From positions 4,796 to 68,795 of the forward strand of contig CAYOPD010000006.1 of assembly GCA_964405735.1 (NCBI GenBank): DNA of 64,000 bases. The letters run 5' to 3'. Positions 7,029-37,290 of the stretch are shown here, in pieces. Every line of letters begins with the position of its first letter. The stretch's first letter is position 1. A program made the position numbers and the translations under genes. The stretch comes from an uncultured Saprospiraceae bacterium (GTDB lineage Bacteria > Bacteroidota > Bacteroidia > Chitinophagales > Saprospiraceae). The notes under the pieces were generated by a model. It made no database searches, was not told where the DNA came from, and saw only the letters and a program-made list of their open reading frames with translations.

Positions 7029-7047
7029 ATTCTCCGGATCCGGATCT

Positions 7048-9726: not shown

Positions 9727-9734
9727 TATATTTG
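9727..9734 (+). promoter_or_regulatory. Candidate Bacteroidetes-type -7 promoter box (TAnnTTTG) for the HU gene
   Basis: 'TATATTTG' lies 30 nt upstream of the HU ATG in an AT-rich spacer. I saw no clean -33 TTTG. Confidence 0.4.
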
Positions 9735-9764
9735 CCTCATATTTTTAATCAAAATTCAAATAAA

Positions 9765-10037: not shown

Positions 10038-10076
10038 ATCATTGCGCCCGGTTCATTAGTAACCACTGGAATAAAT

Positions 10077-10110
10077 AAAAGGCAGGTGTAGTTTTATACC
10101 TGCCTTTTGT
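10077..10110 (+). terminator. Rho-independent terminator after the HU gene
   Basis: 'ggcaggt' (10081-10087) pairs with 'acctgcc' (10098-10104). It is flanked by an A-tract upstream and 'ttttgt' downstream. Confidence 0.75.
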
Positions 10111-10116
10111 ATTTGA

Positions 10117-11016: not shown

Positions 11017-11046
11017 ATTTTCTTTTGAACAGAATAAGTAATACGC

Positions 11047-13421: not shown

Positions 13422-15713
13422 TTGACCGTGGGACATTTACCAAAATTGATTGAAGACCTGGCCCTGATCCTGATCGTGGGCGCCATGGTAACCTTATTGT
13501 TCAGGAGGATCCGGCAACCCCTGGTCCTGGGTTATATCCTGGCCGGTTTCCTGGTGGGGCCACACCTTTCCATGTTCCCCACTGTGGCGGATATGGAGAA
13601 CGTGGAGACCCTGGCCGAAATCGGTGTGATCTTCCTGCTTTTCAGCCTTGGTCTCGAATTCAGCTTTAAAAAACTCATGCGCATCGGCGGCACGGCCTCC
13701 ATCACAGCGGGCATCGAAATCGTATTCATCACCCTCGCCGGATACATCACCGGAAAGCTGATGGGATGGACCACCATGGACAGCCTGTTTCTGGGGGGCA
13801 TGCTGGCCAGTTCTTCCACGACCATCATCATTCGCGCTTTTGATGAACTGGGTGTGAAAACCAAACAATTCGCCCGCGTGGTTTTTGGAGTGCTCGTTGT
13901 GGAAGACATCGTGGTGATCCTGCTGATGGTCGTTTTGTCGACGGTTGCAGTTACGAGGACCTTTGAAGGGACACAATTATTTTTCACCATTGCCAAGTTG
14001 TTGTTTTTTCTCATTCTTTGGTTTATCACCGGTATTTTTATTTTACCTACTTTTTTAAGGAGGGTCAGGACTTTACTGGATGAGGAGACCCTGCTTATCC
14101 TGGCCATTGGCCTTTGCCTGGGCATGGTCGTATTGGCCACCCAGGTGGGTTTTTCAGCCGAACTGGGCGCCTTCATCATGGGCTCCATTCTTGCAGAAAC
14201 GACCAAGGCCGAGAAAGTGGAACACCTGATCAAACCGGTCAAAGACCTGTTTGGCGCTGTTTTTTTTGTATCGGTAGGTATGCTGATCGATCCCGTCGCC
14301 ATAAAAGAATATGGATGGGCGGTGATTCTGGTCTCCCTGTTGACCATTTTTGGAAAATTTTTGAGTACTGCTGCAGGTGCGCTGATATCAGGACAGACCC
14401 TCAAACAATCGGTGCAGGTAGGGATGAGCATGGCCCAGATCGGGGAATTTGCTTTCATCGTAGCCACCCTGGGCCTGTCGCTGGGCGTAATCAGTGACTT
14501 CCTGTTTCCGGTTGCCGTGGGCGCCTCTGCCATCACTACCTTTACTACTCCCTATTTTATCCGTTATTCGGGGAAGGCATATGATCTGATTGCCGGATGG
14601 CTGCCATCCCGTTGGCTGAATGCCCTGGACCGGTATGCTTACAGTACCCAGGTCACCCAGGTGGAAGGCACCTGGCAGGTCGCGGCCAAATCATACATCA
14701 ATATCCTCCTGATCAACACGATTGTATTGGCCGCCATTCTTTTGCTTTCCGTCAGGTACCTGCTGCCTTTGTCGTTGGATTGGAGCGAAAATCAGACCGT
14801 GGGTCATGGTTTTGCCCTGGGGCTAACCTTGTTGGTATCCTTGCCTTTTTTATGGGGCCTGATGGCCAAACGCCCGGGAAACATGACCTACCGCGAATTG
14901 TGGCTGAACCGTTCGGCCAGTTATGGTGCCCTGAGGATCATTGATATCCTGCGCATCATTGGCGGCATTTTGCTGATCGGATTTATCATTGACCAATTTT
15001 TTTCAACCCTGGTATCCCTGATTGCCGTCCCCATGATCCTGGGAATGTTGTTGTTTTGGTCCAATAAAATTCAGGTTTTTTACAGCCGGCTGGAAGAACG
15101 TTTCCTGACCAATCTCAATGCCCGGGAGACGGCCGCCAAAGCAAACCTGACGGACGAGAAACGGTTGCACCAAAAATTTACGTCCTCCCTGAAACTATCC
15201 CCCTGGGACGTCCATTTGGTCGATCTGAAGGTAGACCCCCAGGCATACAGTGTAGGCAAATCTTTGCAGGATTTGGGGTGGCGGGAAAAATATGGAGTGA
15301 ATGTGGCCTATATCCGCCGTGGTGATAAATTGATCTATGCGCCGGACAGAAACCAAAAAATTTACCCTCATGATCAATTGGGCATTATCGCAACGGATGA
15401 ACAAATCCAGCTTTTTAAGCCTTCATTCGATACCTGCGAATCGGTTGAACCCACTGAGCCGCACGTCGAAGACATTGTGCTTCAGAAAATTCAGGTGGAT
15501 GACAGCAATCAACTGTCAGGCCAGACCATTCGCAATTCAGAGATCCGGGAAAAAACCAAAGGGCTGGTCATTGGGATTGAACGTGGAAGCGAACGAATGA
15601 TCAATCCACGGTCCGATGTCCGCTTTGAAGACGGAGACATCGTCTGGCTGGTAGGAGAAAGACATAGGATCCACGACCAGTTTTCCATCATGGCTCCGGT
15701 CCAGGAACATTGA
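13422..15713 (+). CDS. Cation:proton antiporter (CPA2/Kef-type) with C-terminal RCK_C (TrkA-C) domains
   Basis: 763 aa. 'LPKLIEDLALILIVGAMVTLLFRRIRQPLVLGYILAGFLVGP' is a typical CPA2 N-terminus. 12 or more TM segments are followed by two repeats resembling TrkA-C ('GKSLQDLGWREKYGVNVAYIRRG', 'GQTIRNSEIREKTKGLVIGIERG'). TTG start. Confidence 0.85.
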   Translation: MTVGHLPKLIEDLALILIVGAMVTLLFRRIRQPLVLGYILAGFLVGPHLSMFPTVADMENVETLAEIGVIFLLFSLGLEFSFKKLMRIGGTASITAGIEIVFITLAGYITGKLMGWTTMDSLFLGGMLASSSTTIIIRAFDELGVKTKQFARVVFGVLVVEDIVVILLMVVLSTVAVTRTFEGTQLFFTIAKLLFFLILWFITGIFILPTFLRRVRTLLDEETLLILAIGLCLGMVVLATQVGFSAELGAFIMGSILAETTKAEKVEHLIKPVKDLFGAVFFVSVGMLIDPVAIKEYGWAVILVSLLTIFGKFLSTAAGALISGQTLKQSVQVGMSMAQIGEFAFIVATLGLSLGVISDFLFPVAVGASAITTFTTPYFIRYSGKAYDLIAGWLPSRWLNALDRYAYSTQVTQVEGTWQVAAKSYINILLINTIVLAAILLLSVRYLLPLSLDWSENQTVGHGFALGLTLLVSLPFLWGLMAKRPGNMTYRELWLNRSASYGALRIIDILRIIGGILLIGFIIDQFFSTLVSLIAVPMILGMLLFWSNKIQVFYSRLEERFLTNLNARETAAKANLTDEKRLHQKFTSSLKLSPWDVHLVDLKVDPQAYSVGKSLQDLGWREKYGVNVAYIRRGDKLIYAPDRNQKIYPHDQLGIIATDEQIQLFKPSFDTCESVEPTEPHVEDIVLQKIQVDDSNQLSGQTIRNSEIREKTKGLVIGIERGSERMINPRSDVRFEDGDIVWLVGERHRIHDQFSIMAPVQEH

Positions 15714-15813
15714 TGGATTCAGCTCCTTAATGCAACCTGGCCCGCAGATTTGTATTTGGAGTTGATTCTTATTAATTTGAGCTATTAGGATTTTTAGCCC
15801 CTCTTATAGTATC

Positions 15814-16617
15814 ATGTCTGCAAATAAAATGGTCAACCGGTTCCGTCGTCAAATGGACTTGTTTTACAGGTGTTTGGCAAAAACAAGGATTACCCTGACT
15901 ATGGAGAATATCCACCGCCTCCGGGTAGCCATCAAGAATCTCCGTTCGCTCCTGGTTTTATTGGACAAGGCATGCGGAGGCGCGCTGAAAAAGAAAGATC
16001 ATTTGAAGATCTATGCGCCCTTGTTTAGATTAGCCGGCCAGGTGAGGGACATCCAGATCAGCCTGGGCCTTCTGAAATCCAACAGCGCGTCCTACCTGGT
16101 TCCTTATAAAAAATACATGGGCCAGAAGCTCAGACTGAAACTCCGCCTCCTGCAGGCCGAAACCCAGGCCATCGACCTTAGCCGGCTGGATAAACTCAAT
16201 GCTGCACTGGTCAAAAATCTGGAAGTCCTGCATCCGGGATCAATGCCTGAGCGGACCGATGCCCTGATCAGCCATGTTCTGAGGCGTGTACATGCCCTGT
16301 CGCTAAAACCCAGGGATCTTAAGACCCTTCACGATATCCGCATTTTACTCAAAACGGTGCAGGAAAACCTGGGCATCCTCCTGCGGATAAAACCATCACC
16401 GGGATGGAGATCGATGGATAAAAAACTGAGCCCCTTGTACAATGCCCTAGGAAAATGGCATGACGAAGCTTTATTGATCAAATCCATTAAAGCCTTCCTG
16501 CTTAAAGCCGGCCCTGGCAAGGTGTATTTGGAACGACTGGGCAACAGGTTGAAGAAGAAAAACAAAACCAGGGAGGACAAGATCTATAAACTGCTTCACC
16601 GTATACCAAGCCGGTAA
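15814..16617 (+). CDS. CHAD domain-containing protein
   Basis: All-helical 267 aa. The 'IHRLRVAIKNLRSLL' and 'LHDIRILLKTVQENL' helices are CHAD-like. Confidence 0.65.
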   Translation: MSANKMVNRFRRQMDLFYRCLAKTRITLTMENIHRLRVAIKNLRSLLVLLDKACGGALKKKDHLKIYAPLFRLAGQVRDIQISLGLLKSNSASYLVPYKKYMGQKLRLKLRLLQAETQAIDLSRLDKLNAALVKNLEVLHPGSMPERTDALISHVLRRVHALSLKPRDLKTLHDIRILLKTVQENLGILLRIKPSPGWRSMDKKLSPLYNALGKWHDEALLIKSIKAFLLKAGPGKVYLERLGNRLKKKNKTREDKIYKLLHRIPSR

Positions 16618-16738: not shown

Positions 16739-18091
16739 ATGAATACAAAATCTTCAAGGTCCCGCCGCCGTTTCATCCGGACTTCCGTTGCCGGAGCCGG
16801 CTTGTTGGCAGGAGGGGTGCTTCCCGGCTTTTCCGCCTCAAGTTACCGGAGGATCCCCGGCGCCAATGAAAAAATCAGGGCCTCGGTCATGGGTGTCAAC
16901 AGCAGGGGTTTCGCCCTCGCCCAGAATTTTGCCTACCAGGATGCCTGCGATGTGGTCCATATCTGCGATGTCGATCGTCGGGCTGCCGACAAATGCATCA
17001 AAGGCCTCGAAAGCATCCAGGACCTGAAACCCAAAGCTTATGGGGATTTCAGAAAATCTTTGGAGAGCAGTGAAGTGGATGTCCTGGTGGTTGCCGCCCC
17101 CGACCATTGGCATGCGCCTGCGGCCCTGCTCGCTTTGCAGGCAGGCAAACATGTTTATCTCGAAAAACCCTGCAGCCACAATCCGCAGGAGGGTGAAATC
17201 CTGGTGAAGGCTGCCATGAAGTATAAAAAGTCTATACAGATGGGAAACCAGCGACGCTCCTGGCCCAATGTGATGGAGGGCATCGCGGAACTGAAAAATG
17301 GCATCATCGGCAGGCCTTATTTTGGCAAAGGCTGGTATACCAACAACCGGGAATCCATAGGTATTGGTAAACCCGCCGCCGTCCCGGACTGGCTCGACTG
17401 GGATCTCTGGCAGGGCCCCGCACCGCGGAAACCTTATCAGAACAATGTGGTGCATTACAACTGGCATTGGTTTTGGAATTGGGGCACCGGCGAAGCGCTC
17501 AACAATGGTACCCATATGATCGATCTGCTGCGCTGGGGGCTTGGGGTCGACTTTCCGGTGAAAGTGAGTTCAAATGGCGGCAGGTTCCATTTTAAAGACG
17601 ATTGGGAAACCCCGGACACCCAGGTCATCAACCTGGACTTCAAAGAAGGTGCTTCAATGAGCTGGGAAGGCAGGAGCTGCAACGGCAGACACATCGAAGG
17701 CAGCTCGGTCGGGGTGATCTTTTACGGAGAAAATGGCGCTTTATTTATCCCAAGTGGAAATGAATACCGGGTATACGATTTGAAAAATAAACTGGTCAAA
17801 GAAAAAAAGGATAGCCGTCCTGTGGACCCCAGGGATCTGGCAAATCCGGCGGGACATCTCGACGCCCTTCACATCCTTAATTTTTTCGACAACATTTCTA
17901 AAGGAGAAAAACTGAAATCCGATATCGATTCTGGCCACAAGAGCACCTTGCTGGTGCAGTTGGGCAATATTGCGCAACGGGTAGGGCATTCCCTGGAAAT
18001 CAATCCTCAAAACGGGCATATTCTGGGTGATGTGGCCGCACAAAAGCTTTGGTCGAGGGAATATGAAAGAGGCTGGGAAATGAAGTTGTAA
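16739..18091 (+). CDS. Gfo/Idh/MocA family oxidoreductase with twin-arginine signal
   Basis: 'SRRRFIRTSVAGAGLLAGG' is a TAT motif. Rossmann 'ASVMGVNSRG' and 'EKPCSHN'. Paralogous to 37365-38678. Confidence 0.88.
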   Translation: MNTKSSRSRRRFIRTSVAGAGLLAGGVLPGFSASSYRRIPGANEKIRASVMGVNSRGFALAQNFAYQDACDVVHICDVDRRAADKCIKGLESIQDLKPKAYGDFRKSLESSEVDVLVVAAPDHWHAPAALLALQAGKHVYLEKPCSHNPQEGEILVKAAMKYKKSIQMGNQRRSWPNVMEGIAELKNGIIGRPYFGKGWYTNNRESIGIGKPAAVPDWLDWDLWQGPAPRKPYQNNVVHYNWHWFWNWGTGEALNNGTHMIDLLRWGLGVDFPVKVSSNGGRFHFKDDWETPDTQVINLDFKEGASMSWEGRSCNGRHIEGSSVGVIFYGENGALFIPSGNEYRVYDLKNKLVKEKKDSRPVDPRDLANPAGHLDALHILNFFDNISKGEKLKSDIDSGHKSTLLVQLGNIAQRVGHSLEINPQNGHILGDVAAQKLWSREYERGWEMKL

Positions 18092-18149: not shown

Positions 18150-19124
18150 ATGAAATCAAGAAGGAAATTTATAAAGACCCTGGGAGCAGGAGCATTCCTG
18201 GCCCCGACCATTTTACCGGGCCTGAAGGATAATACCGGAAGGATGGCCTTTAAACCCATTCGTATCGGGATCATCGGGGCGGAAAATTCACATACCGCCG
18301 CCTTTGGCAAATTATTCAATATCGATAAAAAATTTCCCGGGGTGGAGGTGACGATGGTTTGGGGAGAAACCGATGAATATGCCCAAAAGTCCATGAAAGC
18401 GGGCAATATCCCAATCCAGGTCAAAGACCCGGCTGAAATGATGGGGAAGATCGATGCCCTCATCGTGGACCATCGCCATGCCAAATACCATCTTGAACCG
18501 GCCCGGCCTTTTGTGGAAGCCGGGATCCCGTCCTTCATCGATAAACCCTTTTGTTACCGGGCCTCGGAAGGATTGGCCTTTCTTCAAATGGCGAGGAAAA
18601 GGGGGACTGCAGTGACTTCTTACAGTTCCATAGCACACAGCGATACTACACTGGACCTGAGAGCGCAGGTAAATGCCATGCCGGATATCAGCCAGGTCAT
18701 CATTACCGGTCCCGTTGACCCGGACTCGCCATATGGCGGGATCTTCTTTTATGGGGTACATATGGTAGAGCCGCTGATGGCGGTTTTCGGGGAAGACATC
18801 CAGGCGGTAAAGGTCAGCCGTGGTGGAAAAGCAGGGAATGCTCTATTGAAATTCACCTCCGGGCTCACCGCCACTTTTATTTTTAAAACCAAAGCTTACG
18901 GATGGGAAACCTATGTGGAGACCAGCAAAGCCATGATCGAGCTTAAACCCAAGGTAAAAGAGAAAGACCCACCCAGGGCGGATGCCGATATGGTCGAAAT
19001 GTTCTCGACAGGAAAAGAACCCAGGTCACATCAGAGCATACTGAATGGAATATCTGTCCTGGAAGCCCTGGAAAAATCAGTCCAGACCGAAAAATGGACA
19101 GATGTGGAATACCTGAACATCTGA
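18150..19124 (+). CDS. Gfo/Idh/MocA-like oxidoreductase with twin-arginine signal
   Basis: 'SRRKFIKTLGAGAFLA' is a TAT motif. 'IRIGIIGAENSHT' and 'FIDKPF' fit the EKP-like position. Confidence 0.75.
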   Translation: MKSRRKFIKTLGAGAFLAPTILPGLKDNTGRMAFKPIRIGIIGAENSHTAAFGKLFNIDKKFPGVEVTMVWGETDEYAQKSMKAGNIPIQVKDPAEMMGKIDALIVDHRHAKYHLEPARPFVEAGIPSFIDKPFCYRASEGLAFLQMARKRGTAVTSYSSIAHSDTTLDLRAQVNAMPDISQVIITGPVDPDSPYGGIFFYGVHMVEPLMAVFGEDIQAVKVSRGGKAGNALLKFTSGLTATFIFKTKAYGWETYVETSKAMIELKPKVKEKDPPRADADMVEMFSTGKEPRSHQSILNGISVLEALEKSVQTEKWTDVEYLNI

Positions 19125-19133
19125 GGATGAGTT

Positions 19134-20381
19134 ATGAAAGGGAAAATGCGTATTCCGTCCATCCTGGCCGTTCCGGTTTTTGTATTATTATCTGCCCTGA
19201 TGAATGAATGGACCGCCCAGGAAGCAGTCGAAGGCTTGCATTATGCAACCGGCCAACCGGTCCGCATTGAGTTCAGCGGAAGCAAAATTAAATCAATCAA
19301 AAAAATCAAAAAGTTGTCCGGCCCGGCCAGGGTGTATCTAGCGCCCGGTTTTTTTGATAACCAGGTAAACGGATTTGCAGGCATTTCCTTTTCCTTTGGA
19401 AACAGCGACCTGAGGCCGGATGATATCCTGAAGGCGACCCGGGAGTTATGGAAAAAAGGAGTGACCTCCTATTTGCCCACCCTGACGACCCATAGCCACG
19501 AAGTACTGATGAAGAACTTCGAAGTACTGAGCCAGACTTATTCGGGGGATTCTCTGCTGGGGTCCATACCGGGCTTTCATCTGGAAGGTCCCTATATCAA
19601 TCCGGAAGACGGCTACCGTGGAGCCCATCCCAAAGCCTTCGTACGCCTTCCGGATTGGGATGAGTTTATGAAATTATACCATGCCTCCGGAAAGAAAATT
19701 TTGCAGGTAACCCTTGCCCCTGAATTGGATGGGGCCATGGATTTTATTAAAAAATGTAAGGAATTGGGCGTCACGGTTGCCATCGGACATCACAATGCCA
19801 ACCGGAGCCAGGTGGATGAAGCCGTTAAATATGGGGCCAGGATAGTCACCCATTTGGGAAATGGTTGTGCGAATACGATCAACCGGCATATCAATCCCTT
19901 GTGGCCGCAACTGTCCAATGACGGACTCATGATCAGCATCATCTGCGATGGATTCCATTTAAATGAAGAAGAGATCCGCGTTTTTTACAAAGTAAAAGGA
20001 CCGGGCATGACGGTCATTACGTCAGACGTCACCAGTTACGCCGCCCTCGAGCCCGGAGAATACAAAACCCAGACCGGGGAGACGATTGAACTTACTCGGG
20101 AAGGAATGCTGAGGTATCCCGCGCAAAATGTGATGTATGGTTCCGCCTCGCCCATCACCAAAGGGGTGGGCCACATCATGAAAGCGACCGGATGCTCCCT
20201 GTCAGAAGCAGTTCAAATGGCCAGCACCAACCCGGCGCAACTTTACGGCCTTACCGATCGGGGAAAACTGGAAAAAGGCCTGCGCGGAGACCTGGTCTTG
20301 TTTACCCTGGAAGATTTTAATATCACGATTCAAAAGACCTATGTTCAGGGGATACGGGTGTATGACCGCAATCATCCTTAA
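19134..20381 (+). CDS. nagA: NagA-like amidohydrolase (N-acetylglucosamine-6-phosphate deacetylase family), N-terminal hydrophobic extension possible
   Basis: 'LAPGFFDNQVNGFAGISF' matches the E. coli-type NagA 'PGFIDVQLNG' motif. 'GFHLEGPYIN' and 'VAIGHHNA' also fit. Residues 5-22 ('RIPSILAVPVFVLLSAL') look like a signal or anchor. An alternative Met at 19200 would remove it. Confidence 0.8.
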   Translation: MKGKMRIPSILAVPVFVLLSALMNEWTAQEAVEGLHYATGQPVRIEFSGSKIKSIKKIKKLSGPARVYLAPGFFDNQVNGFAGISFSFGNSDLRPDDILKATRELWKKGVTSYLPTLTTHSHEVLMKNFEVLSQTYSGDSLLGSIPGFHLEGPYINPEDGYRGAHPKAFVRLPDWDEFMKLYHASGKKILQVTLAPELDGAMDFIKKCKELGVTVAIGHHNANRSQVDEAVKYGARIVTHLGNGCANTINRHINPLWPQLSNDGLMISIICDGFHLNEEEIRVFYKVKGPGMTVITSDVTSYAALEPGEYKTQTGETIELTREGMLRYPAQNVMYGSASPITKGVGHIMKATGCSLSEAVQMASTNPAQLYGLTDRGKLEKGLRGDLVLFTLEDFNITIQKTYVQGIRVYDRNHP

Positions 20382-20425: not shown

Positions 20426-21661
20426 ATGAAAAATCTATTTAAAAAAATCTCACTAGCCCTTGCTGCGGTCGGGCCGGGACTGTTTTTAATTGGTTATAAT
20501 ATTGGGACCGGGAGTGTCACGACTATGGCCAAATCGGGAGCGGACCATGGGATGTCCCTTTTCTGGGCCCTGGTCCTGTCCTGCGTCTTTACCTATATCC
20601 TGATGGTGGCTTATGGAAGGTTGACCCTGGTAACCGGCAGGACCCCGCTTTTTAATTTTAAACATGAATTCAAATATGGGTGGATCCTGGCTTTGTATGT
20701 CCTGATGGCCCTGGTGGTGGGAGAGTTGTTTGCGCTGATCGGAGTCACGGGTATTGTGGCCGATCTGTTGCAGGAAGGCATTAGAATCGTTTCGGGCGGA
20801 ACGGTCATTCACACCGGGTGGATCATCCTGGTCATTGTGATCCTGATGTATATTCTGTTGTGGTTTGGACGGTACAAACAGTTTGAAAAAGTGCTCACGG
20901 CCATCGTGGTATTGATGGGGCTTTGTTTTGTGCTTGTCTTTTTTATGCTGAAACCGGACCTGGCCAGCATCCTTCTCGGAATGGTTCCCCGGATCCCGGA
21001 CACACCGGGAGCGCTTGGACTGATCGCGGCGATGGCTGGCACCACCTGTTCGGCCGCCGTGTTTATTGTTCGTGGTACGGTGGTCGCAGAGAAAGGCTGG
21101 ACGGTGAAAGACCTGCCGGCTGAAAAAAGAGATTCATTCGTATCCGCGTTCATGATGTTGTTTCTAAGCGGTATCATCATGGCGGTTTCCGCGGGTACCC
21201 TTCATGTCATGGGCTTGAAACTCAACAATACCGTCGAGATGATCCACCTTTTCCAGCCCCTGGGTGGTAAGGCCGCGGCACTGATCCTCATTCTGGGTGT
21301 GACCGGAGCCGGACTTTCGACGATCTTCCCTATTGTGCTCATCGCGCCCTGGCTGGTCAGTGATTATTTGGGTAAACCAAGGGACCTCCGGTCTCCCATG
21401 TTCCGCTGGCTGATTTTATTGGGTTTGTTTTTTGCTTTCGGCACCTTGTTCCTTGAACAAAAAGCCCCTGCCCTCATGATTTTTTCACAGGCTTTCCAGG
21501 CTTGTATATTGCCCGCGGTGGCCATTCCCGCCTTTATTCTTCTGAACCGGCAAAACACCATGAAGGAGTTCACCGCCGGATGGAAAATGAACCTGGGGGT
21601 CATTGCGGTCATCCTGTTTTCATTTCTCACCACCTGGTTTGCAATACTCGATATATTTTAG
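20426..21661 (+). CDS. NRAMP-family (APC/LeuT-fold) transporter lacking the canonical metal-binding motifs
   Basis: It aligns along its length with MntH ('GPGLFLIGYNIGTGS...', 'GMVPRIPDTPGALGLIAAMAGTTCSAAVF'). However, DPGN is replaced by NIGTG and MPH by CSA. Trimmed to the Met at 20426. Confidence 0.75.
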   Translation: MKNLFKKISLALAAVGPGLFLIGYNIGTGSVTTMAKSGADHGMSLFWALVLSCVFTYILMVAYGRLTLVTGRTPLFNFKHEFKYGWILALYVLMALVVGELFALIGVTGIVADLLQEGIRIVSGGTVIHTGWIILVIVILMYILLWFGRYKQFEKVLTAIVVLMGLCFVLVFFMLKPDLASILLGMVPRIPDTPGALGLIAAMAGTTCSAAVFIVRGTVVAEKGWTVKDLPAEKRDSFVSAFMMLFLSGIIMAVSAGTLHVMGLKLNNTVEMIHLFQPLGGKAAALILILGVTGAGLSTIFPIVLIAPWLVSDYLGKPRDLRSPMFRWLILLGLFFAFGTLFLEQKAPALMIFSQAFQACILPAVAIPAFILLNRQNTMKEFTAGWKMNLGVIAVILFSFLTTWFAILDIF

Positions 21662-21716: not shown

Positions 21717-22481
21717 ATGATTAAAGAGTTTACATCAGATGCACTGCGAATTAAAATATTTGAAAATTCGGATACCTTGGGGAAGGCCGCCTCAGGAATG
21801 GTTGCAAGGCAACTGCATGATGTGATTGGGAAAAAAGGTCATGCCAATCTGATCCTTGCTACCGGTGCCTCTCAATTCTCCTTCCTCGGGCATCTTCAGA
21901 AAGAAACGATTGACTGGAAAAAAATCACGGTGTTCCACCTGGATGAATACCTGGGCATACCGGAAGCCCACCCGGCCAGTTTTCGGAAATACCTGAAAGA
22001 AAGGATCCTTGAAAAAGTGCAGCCCGGGCAGGTTCATTACCTGGATGGAGATGCAGCCGATATAGCCGCAGAAGCCTCCAGGTATGAAGCGTTGCTGAAG
22101 GATCATCCCATTGACCTGGCCTGCATCGGGATCGGTGAAAACGGGCATATCGCTTTTAACGATCCACCGGTTGCAGATTTTGATGATCCGCGGCTCGTCA
22201 AGGTAGTGGCCCTGGACCAGGCTTGCCGTATGCAGCAATTGGGAGAGGGTTGGTTCCCAAGCCTTGAGGAAGTTCCCACCCATGCCTTAACCCTGACCAT
22301 ACCTGCGATCATGTCCTGCTCCAGAATCAGTTGTGTGGTGCCCGACGAAAGAAAGGCAAAGGCAGTGTATGAGACCGTCAAAGGAGAAATTTCAACGGCT
22401 TGCCCGGCAAGTATTTTACGCCGGCACCCGGATGCGGATTTATACCTCGATCTGTATTCAGCTAAATTATTGATTGACTAA
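21717..22481 (+). CDS. nagB: Glucosamine-6-phosphate deaminase/isomerase family protein (NagB-like)
   Basis: 'NLILATGASQFSFL', 'FHLDEYLGI' and 'IGIGENGHIAFNDP' are hallmark NagB/6-phosphogluconolactonase family motifs. Confidence 0.85.
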   Translation: MIKEFTSDALRIKIFENSDTLGKAASGMVARQLHDVIGKKGHANLILATGASQFSFLGHLQKETIDWKKITVFHLDEYLGIPEAHPASFRKYLKERILEKVQPGQVHYLDGDAADIAAEASRYEALLKDHPIDLACIGIGENGHIAFNDPPVADFDDPRLVKVVALDQACRMQQLGEGWFPSLEEVPTHALTLTIPAIMSCSRISCVVPDERKAKAVYETVKGEISTACPASILRRHPDADLYLDLYSAKLLID

Positions 22482-24620: not shown

Positions 24621-24791
24621 ATGATCCACCAGGAGGACGAAGTGCCCAGAGTAAAAATCTCGCGTTACCTCCGCAATAAGTTAAACTTCGATTACAATTA
24701 TCTTTCCAATCTTTATTCAGAGGTAAAAGGCACCACTATCGAACACTTTATCATTGTTCACTCTATCGAGCGGGACCCATCAATGGTATAA
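24621..24791 (+). pseudogene. Possible remnant of an AraC-family HTH gene (56-aa ORF)
   Basis: My own translation is 'MIHQEDEVPRVKISRYLRNKLNFDYNYLSNLYSEVKGTTIEHFIIVHSIERDPSMV*'. The segment 'L..KLNF.YNYLSNL.S.VKG.T...FI...IE' resembles the first HTH plus linker helix of AraC/XylS domains. There is no second HTH, and upstream frames are closed. Confidence 0.25.
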
Positions 24792-25976
24792 TAGGACATC
24801 CTTTACCCTTTCGGCCCAGCCCGGGACGGCCAATAAATCCTCAAGTTCATCCAGGGAGTTTAAAGGATCCTTTTCCAACCAGGCTTTTAACCTTACGTCA
24901 CCGGTCAGCAACTCAAAATGCCTTTCCCCGGACGGATTGACCAGGGTGGGATAAGGCGTCCATTCAAAATACCCGGAATATAGATTCTTCAGCAGGGCCA
25001 ATAAAAGCATACCCGTTTTTACGGGACGATAAACGGCAGCGTCTGACACCAGAAGCCGGATCCCTTCACAAGACTGACTTTTGTATTTTCCCTCCTGTGG
25101 AATGCATTGATAAGGTAAGGCTTCAACCCCCTGGGGAGCATATTGATTAAAAGCATTTGAAAGTTCCTTCGCCTGGATCCAGGGAGCATAGGCCACTTCA
25201 AAGGAGTCAGGACCACCACGGCCTTCACTGATATTGGCAGCCTCCAAAAAACAAAGGCTGGGATAGGTTAAACAAGTAGTTGGGGACAGGATAGCAGGGG
25301 ATGGAGGTTTAAATGGATATTGCCAGTCCAGGATGGTGTCCTTTCTTTCCCAGCCTTGCACATTTATGATTTGCAAAGAAAGTTTGTCCAGATCCATTTC
25401 CTGCTTTAATAAAAGAGCGAGCTCTCCGAGGGTCAGGCAGAACCTTATGGGAATGTTCCACCTCCCGATGAAAGAATGATAGCCCGGCATCATCATGGGG
25501 CCTTCCGTGCGGGAAAAATCTGCCCCCAGGGGATTGGGCCGGTCCAGGATGATTAACGGCAGGTCTTCTTCCGCACACCATTCCATGACGTAAGACATCG
25601 TCCACAGATAGGTATAAAATCTTACACCGGCATTAGGAAGGTCAAGGAGGATGGCATCCGGCAAAGTTTCAAATTCACGGGAGGGCTTGAGTTGATTTCC
25701 ATAAAGGCTGGTCACGGGTATTCCAGTGAGAGGGTCCAGACTGTCAGGTTGGGGGGCGCCGTCCATACCCCTGGCCTGCAAACCATGTTCCGGTGAAAAA
25801 AGCCGAATGATCCGGTACCCAGCCTCAATAAGAGCTTGTTTTATGCCAATACCCGACCTGCTGACCGAAGATTCATTGGTCACAAGACCATAAGACAAGG
25901 ATGTATTTAGTGTTTTCTCCATTAGCAGCCGGTCGATGCCATTGTATAAAACCTTTGTATGGATCGGAGATTCCAT
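24780..25976 (-). CDS. DUF1343 family protein (NamZ-like exo-beta-N-acetylmuramidase family)
   Basis: 'GLVTNESSV', 'LFSPEHG', 'ILLDLPNAGVRFYTYLWTM' and 'IILDRPNPLG' are characteristic DUF1343 blocks. Confidence 0.8.
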   Translation of the reverse strand: MESPIHTKVLYNGIDRLLMEKTLNTSLSYGLVTNESSVSRSGIGIKQALIEAGYRIIRLFSPEHGLQARGMDGAPQPDSLDPLTGIPVTSLYGNQLKPSREFETLPDAILLDLPNAGVRFYTYLWTMSYVMEWCAEEDLPLIILDRPNPLGADFSRTEGPMMMPGYHSFIGRWNIPIRFCLTLGELALLLKQEMDLDKLSLQIINVQGWERKDTILDWQYPFKPPSPAILSPTTCLTYPSLCFLEAANISEGRGGPDSFEVAYAPWIQAKELSNAFNQYAPQGVEALPYQCIPQEGKYKSQSCEGIRLLVSDAAVYRPVKTGMLLLALLKNLYSGYFEWTPYPTLVNPSGERHFELLTGDVRLKAWLEKDPLNSLDELEDLLAVPGWAERVKDVLLYH

Positions 25977-26006: not shown

Positions 26007-27434
26007 ATGAAACGGACTATCACCGCCTTGATGTTAGTTTATTCCACAACGATCTTTGGCCAACTTTCCAAAACCGATCTACATCAAAACATCAATGACC
26101 GCTATGAGGAATATTCCGCTATAGCACAATCTATTTGGGAATATGCCGAAGTCGGATTCCAGGAATATAAAAGCAGCAACCTGCTGAAATCCTTGTTGAA
26201 GAAAGAAGGATTTTCAATCGAGGACAGTGTGGCGGGCATGCCCACGGCCTTTATTGCTTCCTATGGCAATGGTAAACCGGTAATCGCCCTGCTTGGAGAA
26301 TTTGACGCCCTGCCGGGGGTTTCCCAGGATAGGGTTCCTTATTTGAAAATTTTAGACGAAAAACAGGCTGGGCATGCCTGTGGGCATCACTTGTTCGGGA
26401 CAGCCTCTGCCGCTGCGGCGATTGAGGTCAAAAACTGGTTGAAATCTTCTAAGGCCAGCGGGACCATCCGTTTTTATGGCAGCCCGGCTGAGGAAGGCGG
26501 TTCCGGCAAGGTATATCTGGTGAGGGAAAACCTGTTCAGGGATGTGGACGCCGTTTTACATTGGCACCCAGCGGATATGAACGGGGCCTCCGCCAGTCCA
26601 TCTTTGGCCAATAAAAATGGCAAGTTCAGGTTCTATGGGGTCTCTTCCCATGCCGCCATGTCTCCGGAGCGGGGAAGGTCAGCGCTGGATGGGGTAGAGG
26701 CCATGGATGCCATGGTCAATATGATGCGGGAACACGTACCCTCCGATGCACGAATACATTATGTGATCACCCGGGGAGGTGAGGCCCCCAATGTGGTGCC
26801 GGCCTTTGCGGAAGTATATTATTATGTAAGGCATCCTAAAGCGGAGACGGTGAATTCCATCTGGGAAAGAATTGAAAAAGCGGCCCAGGGTGCCGCCATG
26901 GGGACGGAAACCCGGGTGGAGTGGGAAATCACAGGTGGGGTATACAACCTGCTCAACAATGCGGCGCTCTCCGGCCTGATGGATAAAAACCTCAGGCTCG
27001 TTGGCGGGTATACCTATTCCCCGGAAGAAAAGGCTTTTGCCGAAAAAATTCAATCCACTTTTAAGGGAAATTTGAAAGAACTCTCAAGCACGGCGGTGAT
27101 AACTCCTTTTACGGTCAGTGAGATTCCATGGCCGGCATCCACAGATGTAGGTGATGTCAGTTGGGTAGTGCCCACCGCCGGACTGAGCACGGCGACCTGG
27201 GTGCCCGGTACTGCAGCGCACAGCTGGCAGGCCGTTGCCGCCGGAGGGACCTCCATCGGTATAAAAGGAATGATGGTGGCCGCCAAAACACTGGCGGGCA
27301 CTGCCGTGGATTTATTCAATGCGAGCGCTTTGATCGGGGAGGCCTGGAAAGAACTAAATGGCCGCCGGGGGGACAAATTTGAATATAAACCTATGCTTGG
27401 AAGCCGTAAACCCGCCCTGGACTATAGGAATTAA
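26007..27434 (+). CDS. M20 family metallopeptidase/amidohydrolase (AbgB-like), secreted
   Basis: Signal peptide. 'LLGEFDALPG', 'GHACGHHLFG' and 'GSPAEEGG' fit the M20D/AbgB-like metal-ligand pattern. Confidence 0.8.
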   Translation: MKRTITALMLVYSTTIFGQLSKTDLHQNINDRYEEYSAIAQSIWEYAEVGFQEYKSSNLLKSLLKKEGFSIEDSVAGMPTAFIASYGNGKPVIALLGEFDALPGVSQDRVPYLKILDEKQAGHACGHHLFGTASAAAAIEVKNWLKSSKASGTIRFYGSPAEEGGSGKVYLVRENLFRDVDAVLHWHPADMNGASASPSLANKNGKFRFYGVSSHAAMSPERGRSALDGVEAMDAMVNMMREHVPSDARIHYVITRGGEAPNVVPAFAEVYYYVRHPKAETVNSIWERIEKAAQGAAMGTETRVEWEITGGVYNLLNNAALSGLMDKNLRLVGGYTYSPEEKAFAEKIQSTFKGNLKELSSTAVITPFTVSEIPWPASTDVGDVSWVVPTAGLSTATWVPGTAAHSWQAVAAGGTSIGIKGMMVAAKTLAGTAVDLFNASALIGEAWKELNGRRGDKFEYKPMLGSRKPALDYRN

Positions 27435-27494: not shown

Positions 27495-28976
27495 CTAGGG
27501 TATCTGAGGATTCAGGTCCCAGAGAGTGGTTTTTGCATGGAATTGTTTGCCGGTTATCCTGAATTTCTGGAGAGGCCCCGGAGCAAAAAACACGGAAGTA
27601 AGGGCGGCTTTGCCATTGTCCGAAAAGATTTCCATGGAATAGTGGTCCATCAGGATTTGGAGCGTCAGGTTATGTCCTGGGCTCACTGCTAAACAGTCAA
27701 TGGAAGGATATGCCGGGTGAAAAGCAAGGGTCTTGCTGGTCCGGTCGAGACAGAGTTGATGCCGAACTGCATCCCAGGTCACGAGCAATTTGGCTTTCCT
27801 GCCAAAATCAAAATCCAGGACAGCACCTTTATGGGAATCAAGGTTGATCTGCCACTCCATGGCGGGAGAGGTCTGGATATCCCAGGAGTCAAATTTTGTA
27901 TTGGGATCAGCCAGGTATTCCCTTTTATTGGTCCTGATCGCCTGTAAGGTATCCACCGGCAACTGGAGAAGCCGGTAAGATCCTTCTGTTTCACGCTGAA
28001 GCCCGAGTTCCCGGGCGGTGGCCATCATGCCTTTCCAGCCTTCCGTCGGGTTTTGGTTGGCATAAGCCCAGTTGTTCATCCAACCCATAAGGATCCTTTT
28101 TTGCCCCGGGGCCTGGTAGAAAGGAATGGCGGCGTAAAAATCCCTGCCGGCATCTACCTTGTTTACCTGGTCAAGGGCATGGTCGCATCGGAAAGAGGTT
28201 CCGTCAAAATCCCCCGTGAAATAACGCATGGATGAATAATCCCGGTTGGTGGAAATAAGCAATACCCATTTGGTTTTATCTTTTTGGTTATTCACCGGTA
28301 AGGCAAACAGCGCAGGGCATTCCCAAATTTCCTTAAAAGAAGGGTGGCCTCCAAAATCACTGAGCAGATCCCATTTGATCAGGTTTTTTGACGCGTAAAA
28401 CTGCACCTTGAATTCATTGGGCAAAACCACCGCCATGATCCACCGGGCGGTCTCTTCGTGCCAGAAAACATTGGGGTCCCTGAAATCCCGCTTTTTCAGG
28501 TCCAGCACCGGGTTGTTTTTGTACAGCGCCCACTGGAGACCGTTATCGTTGCTGTAGGCTAAATGCTGCGCCTGATGTCCTTCCCGGTGCGCGGTGTACA
28601 ACGCGATCAGCGGTCCGCGGTTCGCGCTACCCAGGCCACTTGAATTTTTATGGTCATGGACTACGCAACCGGAAAATATCATATGGTCCTTTTGTTCGGG
28701 GATTGCAACCGGGAGATGGGTCCATTTTACGAGATCCCGGCTTTTGGCATGGCCCCAGGTCATATGTCCCCATTCATTACCGAAAGGATTATGCTGGTAA
28801 AAAAGGTGGTATTCCCCTTTATAAAAGATAAGGCCGTTGGGATCATTGATCCAAAACTGCGGTGCAGTGAAATGATAAATGGGTCTTGGGGATTCCTCGA
28901 AGTTCCCCTGAAATGCTGACATAGAAAAGAAAGTCAAAATTAGAACAAGTTCCATCAATTTTTCCTGCATAGACAT
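27495..28976 (-). CDS. Glycoside hydrolase family 32 (beta-fructofuranosidase/levanase-like)
   Basis: 'WINDPNGLIFYKGEYHLFYQHNPF', 'FSGC', 'FRDPNVFW' and 'WECP' are the GH32 catalytic blocks. Confidence 0.92.
   Translation of the reverse strand: MSMQEKLMELVLILTFFSMSAFQGNFEESPRPIYHFTAPQFWINDPNGLIFYKGEYHLFYQHNPFGNEWGHMTWGHAKSRDLVKWTHLPVAIPEQKDHMIFSGCVVHDHKNSSGLGSANRGPLIALYTAHREGHQAQHLAYSNDNGLQWALYKNNPVLDLKKRDFRDPNVFWHEETARWIMAVVLPNEFKVQFYASKNLIKWDLLSDFGGHPSFKEIWECPALFALPVNNQKDKTKWVLLISTNRDYSSMRYFTGDFDGTSFRCDHALDQVNKVDAGRDFYAAIPFYQAPGQKRILMGWMNNWAYANQNPTEGWKGMMATARELGLQRETEGSYRLLQLPVDTLQAIRTNKREYLADPNTKFDSWDIQTSPAMEWQINLDSHKGAVLDFDFGRKAKLLVTWDAVRHQLCLDRTSKTLAFHPAYPSIDCLAVSPGHNLTLQILMDHYSMEIFSDNGKAALTSVFFAPGPLQKFRITGKQFHAKTTLWDLNPQIP

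Positions 28977-34046: not shown

Positions 34047-37290
<3,244 letters not shown>

What the first reader, a model, noticed from the sequence alone, without database searches (positions are those of the whole stretch)
20426..21661. NRAMP-fold transporter lacking all canonical metal ligands, embedded between NagA-like and NagB-like genes
The protein aligns along its length with MntH-type NRAMPs. However, the TM1 'DPGN' motif (Asp and Asn metal ligands) reads 'NIGTG' at 20498-20512. The TM6 'A..MPH' motif (Ala carbonyl and Met ligands) reads 'GTTCSAA' at about 21038-21058. Loss of Asp, Asn and Met argues against transition-metal transport. The gene sits in the same-strand run Gfo, Gfo, NagA-like, this gene, NagB-like, with spacers of 5-58 nt. 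NRAMPs belong to the LeuT-fold APC superfamily, so a switch to an organic substrate is structurally plausible. An amino sugar or derivative is a candidate. I know of no characterised example.
Basis: partly seen in the sequence, partly recalled or inferred. Interest (0 to 1): 0.65.

Follow-up and report, generated by a model that had tools for sequence, protein, structure and literature searches.

The report
NRAMP-fold transporter in an amino-sugar operon
A membrane transporter with the fold of the NRAMP manganese/iron importers has lost every metal-binding and proton-relay residue and sits, across several bacterial phyla, between an exported sugar deacetylase and a cytoplasmic sugar deaminase, so it most likely imports an amino-sugar-type nutrient rather than a metal.

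Summary
ORF 20426-21661 (+) is a full-length PF01566/NRAMP protein (E 3e-54; AF2 pLDDT 85; Foldseek TM 0.77-0.84 to DraNramp and EleNRMT). The Slc11 ligands are replaced: Asp56->Gly27, Asn59->Ser30, Ala227->Thr206, Met230->Ser209, His232->Ala211. The Slc11 proton-relay residues are also gone, and an invariant Arg216 appears in TM6b.

It belongs to a monophyletic 'IGTGS' clade (295/300 NJ bootstraps), separate from Slc11, NRMT and the YcsG/PxpT-type 'IGPGT' group.

The neighbourhood is conserved. Of 42 loci with at least 3 kb on both sides, 32 have the NagA-like or NagB-like gene within 5 kb and 25 have both.

New points:
- Both Gfo enzymes carry twin-arginine signals.
- The NagA-like deacetylase carries a conserved signal peptide, so it is extracytoplasmic.
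- The NagB-like enzyme has no signal and has lost Arg172.

This topology fits periplasmic processing, import, then cytoplasmic deamination of a non-phosphorylated amino sugar. The sugar may be an amino-uronate, because uronate genes recur around clade members.

No transport was measured. A partial precedent for a non-metal substrate in PF01566 exists (PxpT/YcsG, 5-oxoproline, disputed). Verdict: new variant of a known kind; interest about 0.62.

The parts
16739..18091 (+). Gfo/Idh/MocA oxidoreductase 1 (450 aa) with a twin-arginine signal (SRSRRRFIRTSVAGAG); distantly like glycoside 3-dehydrogenases
   Evidence: Pfam GFO_IDH_MocA plus C-terminal domains. NCBIfam BT_2158 glycoside 3-dehydrogenase scores 152 bits, far below the 750 cut-off. 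Best PDB hits are 8tdf/8tdh dehydrogenases (E 3e-31) and DgpA. RR motif seen.
18150..19124 (+). Gfo/Idh/MocA oxidoreductase 2 (324 aa) with a twin-arginine signal (KSRRKFIKTLGAGA)
   Evidence: Pfam PF01408, N-terminal domain only. RR-x-F-[IL]-K motif conserved in orthologues.
19134..20381 (+). NagA-like amidohydrolase (415 aa) with an N-terminal signal peptide, predicted extracytoplasmic deacetylase
   Evidence: TIGR00221 nagA 213.4 bits, below the 225.65 cut-off. PDB NagA hits E 9e-44. E. coli NagA residues Q59, N61, E131, H143, H195, H216, R227, H251 and D273 all kept; Y223->N. Hydrophobic N-terminal leader in 14 of 14 orthologues.
20426..21661 (+). NRAMP-fold (PF01566) transporter of the 'IGTGS' clade, the subject of the finding
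20504..20515 (+). TM1 unwound segment G27-T28-G29-S30, in the place of the Slc11 D-P-G-N motif
   Evidence: Alignments. AF2 helix break at residues 25-28. G27 and G29 invariant, T28 and S30 at least 90% conserved in 33 sequences.
21038..21058 (+). TM6 unwound segment G205-T-T-C-S-A-A211, in the place of the Slc11 G-A-T-V-M-P-H motif
   Evidence: Alignments. AF2 helix break at residues 207-210. G205 and T206 invariant.
21071..21073 (+). Codon of Arg216 in TM6b, invariant in the clade, at the position of DraNramp His237
   Evidence: R in 21/21 clade representatives; H/Q/Y in the IGPGT group.
21717..22481 (+). NagB-like deaminase/isomerase (254 aa), no signal peptide, predicted cytoplasmic
   Evidence: Pfam Glucosamine_iso. 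Every NCBIfam nagB model is below its cut-off. PDB NagB hits E 9e-32. T41, D72, H143 and K208 kept; T44->S (hydroxyl retained), R172->G and E148->D in all 9 orthologues.

Best explanation
The gene encodes an inner-membrane secondary importer with the NRAMP/LeuT fold whose substrate is an organic solute, not a metal cation. The solute is most likely a 2-amino-2-deoxy sugar or a close derivative.

Proposed pathway. The order of steps is inferred; the parts and their locations are read from the sequence.
1. In the periplasm, the two Tat-exported Gfo/Idh/MocA oxidoreductases work on an N-acetylated amino-sugar glycoside or sugar. In some genomes a PF06439 3-keto-disaccharide hydrolase or a GH109 enzyme is also present.
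2. The signal-peptide-bearing NagA-like metallo-amidohydrolase removes the acetyl group outside the cytoplasm.
3. The NRAMP-like protein carries the free amino sugar across the inner membrane. It would be bound in the unwound TM1 (GTGS) and TM6 (GTT) segments by main-chain and hydroxyl groups, as in other LeuT-fold carriers of organic solutes.
4. The cytoplasmic NagB-like enzyme opens the ring and deaminates/isomerises it to a keto sugar plus ammonium.

Because deacetylation happens outside the cell and the NagB-like enzyme has lost Arg172, the transported sugar is not a sugar phosphate. A mono-anionic C6 group is a reasonable guess, giving an amino-uronate such as GalNA or GlcNA, less likely a 6-sulfate.

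The coupling ion is unknown. The Slc11 proton relay is absent.
For: Shown from sequence and tools:
- PF01566 and the NRAMP fold.
- Every Slc11 metal ligand with a side chain and every proton-relay residue (E124, D131, E134, H232, R352, R353) is replaced by a neutral residue. No Asp/Glu/His/Met/conserved Cys is left at any mapped Slc11 ligand position, and Arg216 is invariant.
- The clade is monophyletic in 295/300 bootstraps. It occurs in Bacteroidota, Planctomycetota, Gemmatimonadota and Ca. Glassbacteria.
- NagA-like or NagB-like lies within 5 kb in 32 of 42 well-flanked loci, both in 25, and Gfo1/2 in 20 of 36. The order Gfo1-Gfo2-NagAl-NRl-NagBl holds down to 44-47% identity.
- Where NagA-like is missing, other deacylases or amine-handling enzymes take its place: M20, CN-hydrolase, Amidohydro_2, DegT aminotransferases.
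- Tat motifs on Gfo1/Gfo2, a signal peptide on NagA-like in 14/14 orthologues, none on NagB-like.
- NagA-like keeps the whole catalytic set including R227. NagB-like keeps D72, H143, K208 and T41, has T44->S (hydroxyl retained), and has lost R172.
- No metal riboswitch or any other Rfam family in the window.
- A LacI-type sugar regulator heads the operon in several genomes.

Uronate hints:
- L012: UxaB-UxaA-Eda-KdgK next door.
- CE15 glucuronoyl-esterase-like genes run on from the operon in L117, L118, L061, L065 and L066, and occur in L019, L074 and L009.
- Clade paralogues sit beside UxaC/UxaE/GH28, GH28 and two PL7 alginate lyases.

Precedent: the PF01566 'IGPGT' relatives lie inside pxpA-...-pxpBC clusters, and PxpT is required for growth on 5-oxoproline (PMC13274462).
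Against: - No transport, binding or growth data exist for any member of this clade.
- Gene neighbourhood shows involvement in the pathway, not which molecule is moved.
- Several more distant clade members sit next to an SSF-family sugar symporter. The NRAMP-like protein might therefore carry something other than the main sugar.
- B. subtilis YcsG was reported to raise cellular Mn2+ (PMC10448178). The YcsG/PxpT-type proteins seen here also lack the Slc11 ligands (P0207 in a pxp cluster); the YcsG sequence itself was not examined. Loss of the canonical ligands is therefore not proof against metal transport.
- The role of Gfo1/Gfo2 is unexplained, and they are absent from about 45% of loci.
- No kinase or downstream enzyme is consistently linked.
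- The amino-uronate idea rests on scattered contexts and on residue roles in NagA/NagB recalled from the literature (Arg227', Arg172 and Lys208 as phosphate ligands).
Confidence: 0.6

Rival explanations
1. It is still a cation transporter. It would supply a divalent metal (Mn2+, Zn2+, Fe2+, Co2+ or hydrated Mg2+) to the metal-dependent enzymes of the sugar pathway, such as the NagA-like amidohydrolase or sugar isomerases, using a re-made low-affinity site.
For: - The best sequence and structure match is the Mg2+ transporter EleNRMT (E 8e-18, TM 0.83). Like NRMT it has Thr at A227 and a small residue at M230.
- Gln378 is kept.
- The NagA-like enzyme keeps its metal ligands.
- YcsG was reported as a Mn2+ importer (PMC10448178), and the YcsG/PxpT-type proteins seen here also lack the DPGN/MPH residues.
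- A. baumannii links an NRAMP-family gene to urea catabolism (cited in PMC10448178).
Against: - NRMT keeps Asp55. This clade has Gly there in 21/21 representatives and no other acidic, His, Met or conserved Cys residue at any mapped ligand position.
- An invariant Arg is added in TM6b.
- The metallo-enzyme that would need the metal is exported, while the transporter would deliver metal to the cytoplasm.
- There is no metal riboswitch and no MgtE fragment.
- The operon is headed by a LacI-type sugar regulator in several genomes.
Confidence: 0.15
2. It is an organic-solute carrier of the pathway, but not for the deacetylated amino sugar. It might import a plain uronate or keto-sugar product of the Gfo enzymes, or move a by-product such as acetate or ammonium.
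For: - Clade paralogues without NagA/NagB neighbours sit by alginate lyases, UxaC/UxaE/GH28, ThuA+Gfo, xylose-isomerase-like TIM enzymes, an AGE-family epimerase and SSF symporters. The clade as a whole is therefore not tied to amino sugars.
- Gfo1/Gfo2 chemistry is unresolved.
Against: - Within the query's own subclade (62-91% identity) the tightest partners are the deacetylase upstream and the deaminase downstream, usually immediately adjacent.
- Replacements for NagA-like are other N-deacylases or aminotransferases. This points to the amine-bearing intermediate that must cross the membrane between an exported and a cytoplasmic enzyme.
Confidence: 0.17
3. It no longer transports anything. 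It would be a sensor (transceptor) or a decaying gene kept by chance next to sugar genes.
For: Loss of all family-defining residues could be read as decay.
Against: - The reading frame is full length.
- 18 columns are invariant across 33 sequences down to 29% identity, including both unwound segments.
- The AF2 model is confident.
- Thousands of homologues exist (2726 with E<=1e-10 among those scored).
- Position in the operon is conserved across phyla.
Confidence: 0.03

Closest known systems
Slc11/NRAMP/MntH divalent transition-metal:H+ symporters (DraNramp, ScaDMT, EcoDMT, BfraNramp, DMT1)
   Same: Same Pfam family (PF01566, E 3e-54) and same 11-helix LeuT-type fold, with TM1 and TM6 broken in mid-membrane. 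The TM8 'GAGLS(S/T)' segment and Gln378 are kept.
   Different: Identity is about 19-21%. D56, N59, M230 and H232 and the relay residues E124, D131, E134, R352 and R353 are all replaced. Arg replaces His237. The genomic context is sugar catabolism, not metal homeostasis.
NRMT (NRAMP-related Mg2+ transporters; EleNRMT 7QIA, C. acetobutylicum NrmT)
   Same: Best PDB sequence hit (E 8e-18) and best TM-score (0.83). Thr at the A227 position and a small residue at M230. No Slc11 proton relay.
   Different: NRMT keeps Asp55 in TM1 ('DAGG'); here it is Gly. There is no M-box riboswitch and no MgtE-fragment partner (PMC4072509). EleNRMT falls outside the clade in the NJ tree.
YcsG/PxpT/MntG-type PF01566 proteins ('IGPGT' group), linked to 5-oxoprolinase pxpABC
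   Same: A PF01566 branch that also lacks Asp56/Asn59/Met230 (G, T and V at those positions) and is embedded in a catabolic operon for an organic compound. PxpT is genetically required for growth on 5-oxoproline (PMC13274462). This is the nearest precedent for a non-metal substrate.
   Different: Only 24-31% identical to the query. TM1 reads IGPGT rather than IGTGS. Tyr and His stand where the query clade has Ala and Arg. The neighbours are lactam/hydantoin enzymes, not sugar enzymes. Its function is disputed: Mn2+ import was claimed for YcsG (PMC10448178).
Cellier's 'Slc11 phylogenetic outgroup' within PF01566
   Same: Described as PF01566 members under 30% identical to Slc11 that lack the residues for Mn2+ and H+ transport, with function unknown (PMC9606685, PMC4072509). 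The query fits that description.
   Different: That outgroup was defined from a handful of sequences (7 in PMC9606685) as a rooting device. Neither paper read here mentions an IGTGS clade, sugar-operon context or a substrate proposal.
Canonical amino-sugar route NagE/NagP - NagK - NagA - NagB, and the NagX route for glucosamine
   Same: It uses homologues of NagA and NagB. NagX/HGSNAT-like genes occur near some orthologous operons.
   Different: Here deacetylation is extracytoplasmic and precedes uptake. No kinase or PTS is linked. NagB-like lacks Arg172. The NagX route does the opposite: it acetylates GlcN outside and imports GlcNAc (PMC9007349).

Membership tests
Pfam PF01566 / LeuT-fold APC superfamily | Significant full-length match to the Nramp profile | tested here: met
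   E 3.3e-54, 184.7 bits against a cut-off of 29.8, profile positions 1-356 of 357.
Pfam PF01566 / LeuT-fold APC superfamily | NRAMP-type fold with TM1 and TM6 unwound in mid-membrane | tested here: met
   AF2 pLDDT 85.2, pTM 0.85, helix breaks at residues 25-28 and 207-210. Foldseek top 25 hits are all NRAMP-family chains, TM 0.71-0.84.
Slc11 (canonical NRAMP/MntH metal:H+ symporters) | TM1 D-P-G-N with Asp and Asn as metal ligands | tested here: not met
   G27-T28-G29-S30. Gly in 21/21 and Ser in 20/21 clade representatives.
Slc11 (canonical NRAMP/MntH metal:H+ symporters) | TM6 A-x-x-M-P-H with Met ligand and His | tested here: not met
   T206-T-C-S209-A-A211. Met->A/S and His->A/V in the clade.
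Slc11 (canonical NRAMP/MntH metal:H+ symporters) | Proton-relay residues in TM3 and TM9 (DraNramp E124, D131, E134, R352, R353) | tested here: not met
   V, L, gap, P and M in the query; no conserved charge in the clade.
Slc11 (canonical NRAMP/MntH metal:H+ symporters) | Transport of Mn2+/Fe2+ | not testable with these tools
   Needs uptake assays.
NRMT (Mg2+) | TM1 Asp retained (D-A-G-G); Thr and Ala in TM6 | tested here: not met
   Asp55 position is Gly. The TM6 Thr and small residue are present.
NRMT (Mg2+) | Frequent M-box riboswitch or MgtE-fragment partner | tested here: not met
   No Rfam hit in the 64 kb window. Neighbours are sugar enzymes.
YcsG/PxpT type | TM1 I-G-P-G-T and location in pxpABC (LamB_YcsF, CT_C_D, CT_A_B) clusters | tested here: not met
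   The query has IGTGS. No pxp genes in the window or in the related loci whose neighbours were annotated. It is a separate clade.
NagA (GlcNAc-6-P deacetylase), for the upstream neighbour | Catalytic and metal residues of E. coli NagA | tested here: met
   Q59, N61, E131, H143, H195, H216, H251, D273 and R227 are identical in 9 orthologues.
NagA (GlcNAc-6-P deacetylase), for the upstream neighbour | Cytoplasmic enzyme acting on a sugar phosphate; passes the equivalog model | tested here: not met
   N-terminal signal peptide in 14/14 orthologues. TIGR00221 scores 213.4 against a cut-off of 225.65.
NagB (GlcN-6-P deaminase), for the downstream neighbour | Catalytic Asp72 and His143; phosphate ligands Arg172 and Lys208 (roles from the literature on E. 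coli NagA/NagB, recalled) | tested here: inconclusive
   D72, H143 and K208 kept. R172->G and E148->D in 9/9 orthologues. All NCBIfam nagB models are below their cut-offs.

The most novel reading that the evidence does not exclude
The whole 'IGTGS' clade of NRAMP-fold proteins may be importers of sugar acids and amino sugars.

On this reading the operon encodes an undescribed 'deacetylate outside, deaminate inside' pathway. A 2-acetamido-2-deoxy-hexuronate, or a related N-acetyl amino sugar, is released and deacetylated in the periplasm. It is imported by the NRAMP-like carrier. A NagB-like enzyme that works on a non-phosphorylated substrate then converts it directly to tagaturonate or fructuronate plus ammonium. 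That enzyme would be the amino counterpart of UxaC.
Probability: 0.25. Interest if true: 0.8.

Novelty: new variant of a known kind. Interest (0 to 1): 0.62.

Why it matters
All sequences in this clade that carry a source name are annotated 'Nramp family divalent metal transporter' or 'manganese transport protein'. If they carry sugars, thousands of metal-transport annotations in marine and sediment Bacteroidota and other phyla are wrong.

It would give a clear case of a metal-ion carrier fold re-used for an organic nutrient. It would add a second, independent example beside the disputed PxpT/YcsG case and help settle what the ligand-less branch of PF01566 does.

The linked enzymes point to an unrecognised route of amino-sugar breakdown that starts outside the cytoplasm. 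These are an exported NagA-like deacetylase, a NagB-like enzyme without Arg172, and Tat-exported Gfo enzymes. The route is relevant to the turnover of bacterial and algal glycans.

Tried and rejected
- Restoring the motif: I looked for an alignment that restores DPGN/MPH. Pairwise phmmer to four NRAMP structures and a 56-sequence MAFFT alignment give the same TM1 register. In TM6 the pairwise alignments differ by one position (Met opposite Ser209 against EleNRMT, opposite Cys208 against DraNramp); MAFFT gives Ser209. In no register is a ligand restored.
- Metal regulation: I looked for metal regulation. There is no Rfam family in the window. The sigma-70 and terminator scans were uninformative, and sigma-70 consensus is not expected to apply to Bacteroidota.
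- Literature: eight searches found no paper on this clade or on an NRAMP gene in an amino-sugar cluster. The PDB codes 8TDF/8TDH could not be traced to a paper.
- GH109 idea: I considered Gfo1 as a GH109 glycosidase. The GH109 C-terminal domain is not found in Gfo1, but it is in a separate gene of L008/L009.
- Aldonic-acid idea: I considered oxidation at C1 to an amino-aldonic acid as the transported species. I rejected it as the main idea because the NagB-like enzyme keeps the aldose-ketose catalytic residues, which need a free C1 aldehyde. This is inference.
- Placing YcsG: I tried to place B. subtilis YcsG directly. Its PDB model 9a52 appears in Foldseek but not in the sequence search, so its group was inferred from a pxp-cluster member instead.
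- Tree building: the first NJ runs failed, one on time-out and one on NaN distances. They were redone.
Model coordinates are not exposed, so no pocket analysis was possible.
- One look-up, for P0138, found nothing.
Full report
**1. What is there**

The ORF at 20426-21661 (+) encodes 411 aa. A TTG at 20387 would add 13 residues. Orthologues of 411-414 aa start at the ATG-equivalent position, so the ATG is the likelier start.

Pfam gives a full-length Nramp match: PF01566, E 3.3e-54, profile positions 1-356 of 357. NCBIfam gives only weak matches: MntH model 63.6 bits against a cut-off of 430, and the generic Nramp_1 model 63 against 50.

Against solved structures the best sequence match is the Mg2+ transporter EleNRMT (7QIA, E 8e-18). 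DraNramp and BfraNramp follow at about 1e-7 to 1e-9.

An AlphaFold2 model built on a 33-sequence alignment is confident: mean pLDDT 85.2, pTM 0.85. Its helices break at residues 25-28 and 207-210, the unwound centres of TM1 and TM6. Foldseek returns NRAMP-family chains as its top 25 hits, with TM-scores of 0.71-0.84; the highest-ranked are DraNramp and EleNRMT (0.76-0.85). APC-family amino-acid carriers follow further down the list. The fold assignment is secure.

**2. The binding site**

Pairwise phmmer alignments and a MAFFT alignment of 56 sequences agree for TM1; for TM6 the pairwise alignments differ by one position and the table follows the MAFFT register. The mapping, with DraNramp numbering, is below.

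| DraNramp residue | Query residue | Clade representatives (n = 21) |
|---|---|---|
| D56 | G27 | G in 21/21 |
| P57 | T28 | T in 20/21 |
| G58 | G29 | G in 21/21 |
| N59 | S30 | S in 20/21 |
| A227 | T206 | T in 21/21 |
| M230 | S209 | A or S in 17/21 |
| H232 | A211 | A or V most common (12/21) |
| H237 | R216 | R in 21/21 |
| E124, D131, E134, R352, R353 | V, L, gap, P, M | no conserved charge |
| Q378 | Q355 | kept in 18/21 |

The conclusion stands and is stronger than stated. Not one acidic, His, Met or conserved Cys residue remains at the mapped ligand positions. The Slc11 proton relay is gone and a positive charge has been added in TM6b. Cys208 lies at the Val229 position and varies within the clade.

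In a 33-sequence alignment reaching down to 29% identity, G27, G29, G205, T206 and R216 are invariant. T28, S30, T207 and Q355 are at least 90% conserved. The altered site is therefore under selection and is not decay.

**3. Where it sits in the family**

A search of 1.84 billion 50%-identity cluster representatives gives only 80 hits at E<=1e-30 and 588 at E<=1e-10. Sequences with 'IGTGS' in TM1 form one clade of 23 representatives, monophyletic in 295 of 300 neighbour-joining bootstraps.

The next relatives, at 24-31% identity, carry 'IGPGT' in TM1. One of them lies in the order LamB_YcsF - D-Glu cyclase - Nramp - CT_C_D - CT_A_B, which is the pxpA-ycsG-pxpBC arrangement. Another lies beside an OPLAH-type hydantoinase. 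That group is therefore the YcsG/PxpT type.

The literature describes PF01566 as Slc11 plus NRMT plus an 'outgroup' that lacks the Mn2+/H+ residues and has no known function (PMC9606685, PMC4072509). [quoted passage not shown] B. subtilis YcsG was renamed MntG after evidence for Mn2+ import (PMC10448178).

So a partly characterised, disputed precedent for a non-metal substrate exists. I found nothing on the IGTGS clade in eight literature searches.

**4. The neighbourhood**

In the window the same-strand run is as follows.

| Gene | Coordinates | Spacer to next gene (nt) |
|---|---|---|
| Gfo1 | 16739-18091 | 58 |
| Gfo2 | 18150-19124 | 9 |
| NagA-like | 19134-20381 | 44 |
| NRAMP-like | 20426-21661 | 55 |
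| NagB-like | 21717-22481 | followed by convergent aspS |

Twenty-five genome loci from Prolixibacteraceae, Cyclobacteriaceae, Reichenbachiella, a Flavobacteriaceae MAG, Bacteroidales, Sedimentisphaerales, Longimicrobiales, Gemmatimonadales and Ca. Glassbacteria were fetched, together with 80 metagenome loci at 62-91% identity. They were compared with a panel of the window's proteins.

- The five-gene order is kept in 13 of the genome loci and many metagenome loci. A rearranged form of the cluster persists down to 44-47% identity (L016, L023).
- Of 42 loci with at least 3 kb on both sides, 28 have NagA-like, 29 have NagB-like, 32 have one or the other and 25 have both within 5 kb.
- Gfo1/2 occur in 20 of 36 loci with enough upstream sequence.
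- Starting instead from the NagB-like protein leads back to the same arrangement.

Extra members appear in some genomes:
- a LacI-family regulator upstream;
- a PF06439 3-keto-disaccharide hydrolase between Gfo2 and NagA-like;
- a Tat-signal GH109 enzyme and a NagX/HGSNAT-like membrane protein downstream.

Where NagA-like is absent, other N-deacylases or amine-handling enzymes stand next to the transporter:
- M20 peptidase family (L011 by Pfam; M20-like genes by similarity in L063 and L072);
- a carbon-nitrogen hydrolase with PfkB and a class II aldolase (L049);
- a Tat-signal Amidohydro_2 (L103);
- two DegT-type aminotransferases (L088).

**5. Topology, the most informative new point**

Gfo1 (SRSRRRFIRTSVAGAG) and Gfo2 (KSRRKFIKTLGAGA) begin with twin-arginine motifs that are conserved in orthologues. 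The NagA-like protein begins with a basic stretch and then a hydrophobic leader. The leader is present in all 14 orthologues examined and precedes the conserved 'VEG(I/L)HY' start of the mature domain. The NagB-like protein has no leader.

So three enzymes are predicted to act outside the cytoplasm and one inside, with a single membrane carrier encoded between them. A deacetylase outside the cytoplasm cannot be working on GlcNAc-6-phosphate.

The NagA-like enzyme keeps every catalytic and metal residue of E. coli NagA: Q59, N61, E131, H143, H195, H216, H251 and D273. It also keeps Arg227.

The NagB-like enzyme keeps T41, D72, H143 and K208 and has Ser for T44, retaining the hydroxyl. In all nine orthologues it has Gly for Arg172, within a conserved 'QQLGEGWF', and Asp for Glu148.

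From my recollection of the E. coli NagA and NagB structural literature, Arg227' is the phosphate ligand in NagA, and Arg172 and Lys208 are the phosphate ligands in NagB. Keeping part of the anion site while losing one arginine would suit a singly charged group at C6, such as a carboxylate or a sulfate. It could also suit no anion at all. This is inference.

**6. Which substrate**

The data fix the class better than the molecule. The NagB-type catalytic residues require a 2-amino-2-deoxy-aldose with a free C1.

Hints towards a uronic form recur:
- L012 (a Flavobacteriaceae MAG labelled Urechidicola croceus) has UxaB, UxaA, Eda and KdgK next to the operon.
- In L117, L118, L061, L065 and L066 the operon runs directly into two or three CE15 glucuronoyl-esterase-like genes. 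CE15-like genes also occur in L019, L074 and L009.
- More distant clade members sit beside UxaC/UxaE/GH28 (L017), GH28 (L076), a protein with weak GH88/GH127-family matches (L021) and two PL7 alginate lyases (P0131).

If the imported sugar were 2-amino-2-deoxy-galacturonate or -glucuronate, a NagB-type reaction would give tagaturonate or fructuronate. These are the products of UxaC, and they would feed the standard hexuronate route.

Plain GalN or GlcN remains possible, given the GH109 neighbours and the PfkB plus class II aldolase in L049. I put about 0.25-0.3 on the amino-uronate version and about 0.6 on the general statement 'imports an amino-sugar-type organic solute'.

**7. Against, and rivals**

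Nothing here measures transport. Three distant clade members lie next to an SSF symporter, so in those loci the NRAMP-like protein may not be the main sugar carrier.

The metal-supply idea cannot be dismissed, because YcsG was linked to Mn2+ and YcsG/PxpT-type proteins also lack the ligands (PMC10448178). Four points weigh against it here:
- there is no acidic residue at the site, whereas NRMT keeps Asp55;
- an invariant Arg has been added;
- the metallo-enzyme of the operon is exported while the carrier would deliver inward;
- there is no metal riboswitch, and the regulator is of the LacI type.

The roles of Gfo1/Gfo2 are not explained. They resemble glycoside 3-dehydrogenases only distantly: 8tdf/8tdh at E 3e-31, and the BT_2158 model at 152 bits against a cut-off of 750. 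They are missing from nearly half of the loci. The core unit is therefore deacylase, carrier, deaminase.

**8. Verdict**

The protein is a member of PF01566. It fails the defining tests for Slc11, NRMT and the YcsG/PxpT type. It belongs to a distinct, widespread clade whose source names, where given, are all metal-transporter names.

I rate it a new variant of a known kind, with interest 0.62. The decisive work is experimental: uptake assays, enzyme specificities, localisation, and knockouts in a cultured carrier such as Maribellus maritimus.

Noticed in passing
window 19134-20381 (+): The NagA-like deacetylase has a conserved N-terminal signal peptide (14/14 orthologues) while keeping every NagA catalytic residue and Arg227. 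An extracytoplasmic NagA homologue is unusual in itself.
   Followed up: yes
window 21717-22481 (+): The NagB-like enzyme forms a distinct subfamily with a conserved 'QQLGEGWF' in which Arg172 is Gly and Glu148 is Asp. It scores below all NCBIfam nagB cut-offs, yet sources name it glucosamine-6-phosphate deaminase.
   Followed up: partly
L116 (P0207), L112/L113 (P0278), L114/L115 (P0266): The 'IGPGT' relatives also lack the Slc11 ligands. They sit in pxpA-...-pxpBC clusters, beside an OPLAH-type hydantoinase, or among N-heterocycle/amidohydrolase genes. This bears on the published dispute over whether YcsG/PxpT moves 5-oxoproline or Mn2+.
   Followed up: partly
L026 1245-3803 (P0126): An 852-aa fusion: an IGTGS-clade NRAMP-like domain (residues 8-407) followed by about 445 residues with no Pfam match, encoded next to a GlcNAc 2-epimerase-family gene.
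   Followed up: no
L088 6970-8346 (+): A DegT/DnrJ/EryC1 aminotransferase has an N-terminal RR-type signal ('KTRRTFIKSAG') next to a 65%-identical NRAMP-like gene. A Tat-exported PLP sugar aminotransferase would be unusual.
   Followed up: no
L117 8772-13706; L061, L065, L066; L019, L074, L009: CE15 glucuronoyl-esterase-like genes (PF22244), one with two such domains, follow the operon directly in one group of loci. They recur near clade members in unrelated taxa.
   Followed up: partly
L023 3768-5009 and 5805-7142: Two NagA-like paralogues, both with leaders, flank the NagB-like gene in a Bacteroidales MAG. In L016 and L023 the order is NagA-like, NagB-like, NRAMP-like instead of NagA-like, NRAMP-like, NagB-like.
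   Followed up: no
L005 6108-7343: The NagA-like gene of this Prolixibacteraceae MAG has an in-frame stop after the leader region ('KSIKN*RMK'). Extra genes lie between the NRAMP-like and NagB-like genes. This is possibly a pseudogene or an assembly error.
   Followed up: no
window 24780-25976 (-) and 26007-27434 (+): An exo-beta-N-acetylmuramidase NamZ homologue and a signal-peptide M20 amidohydrolase are divergently arranged just beyond aspS. This pairing next to the operon is kept only in the closest relatives (L001, L032). M20 enzymes also neighbour the transporter in L011, L063 and L072.
   Followed up: partly
window 13422-16617 (+): A CPA2 Na+/H+-exchanger-type protein with two TrkA_C domains (763 aa) is followed by a CHAD-domain protein immediately upstream of the operon. 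No LacI regulator is present here, unlike in L006, L008, L009, L012 and L117.
   Followed up: no
window 4641-12012, 27495-28976, 34064-37290: The general context is saccharolytic: GH95, two unusually long BPD_transp_1 permeases (452 and 404 aa), a split transketolase pair, GH32, GH1 and an SSF symporter.
   Followed up: no
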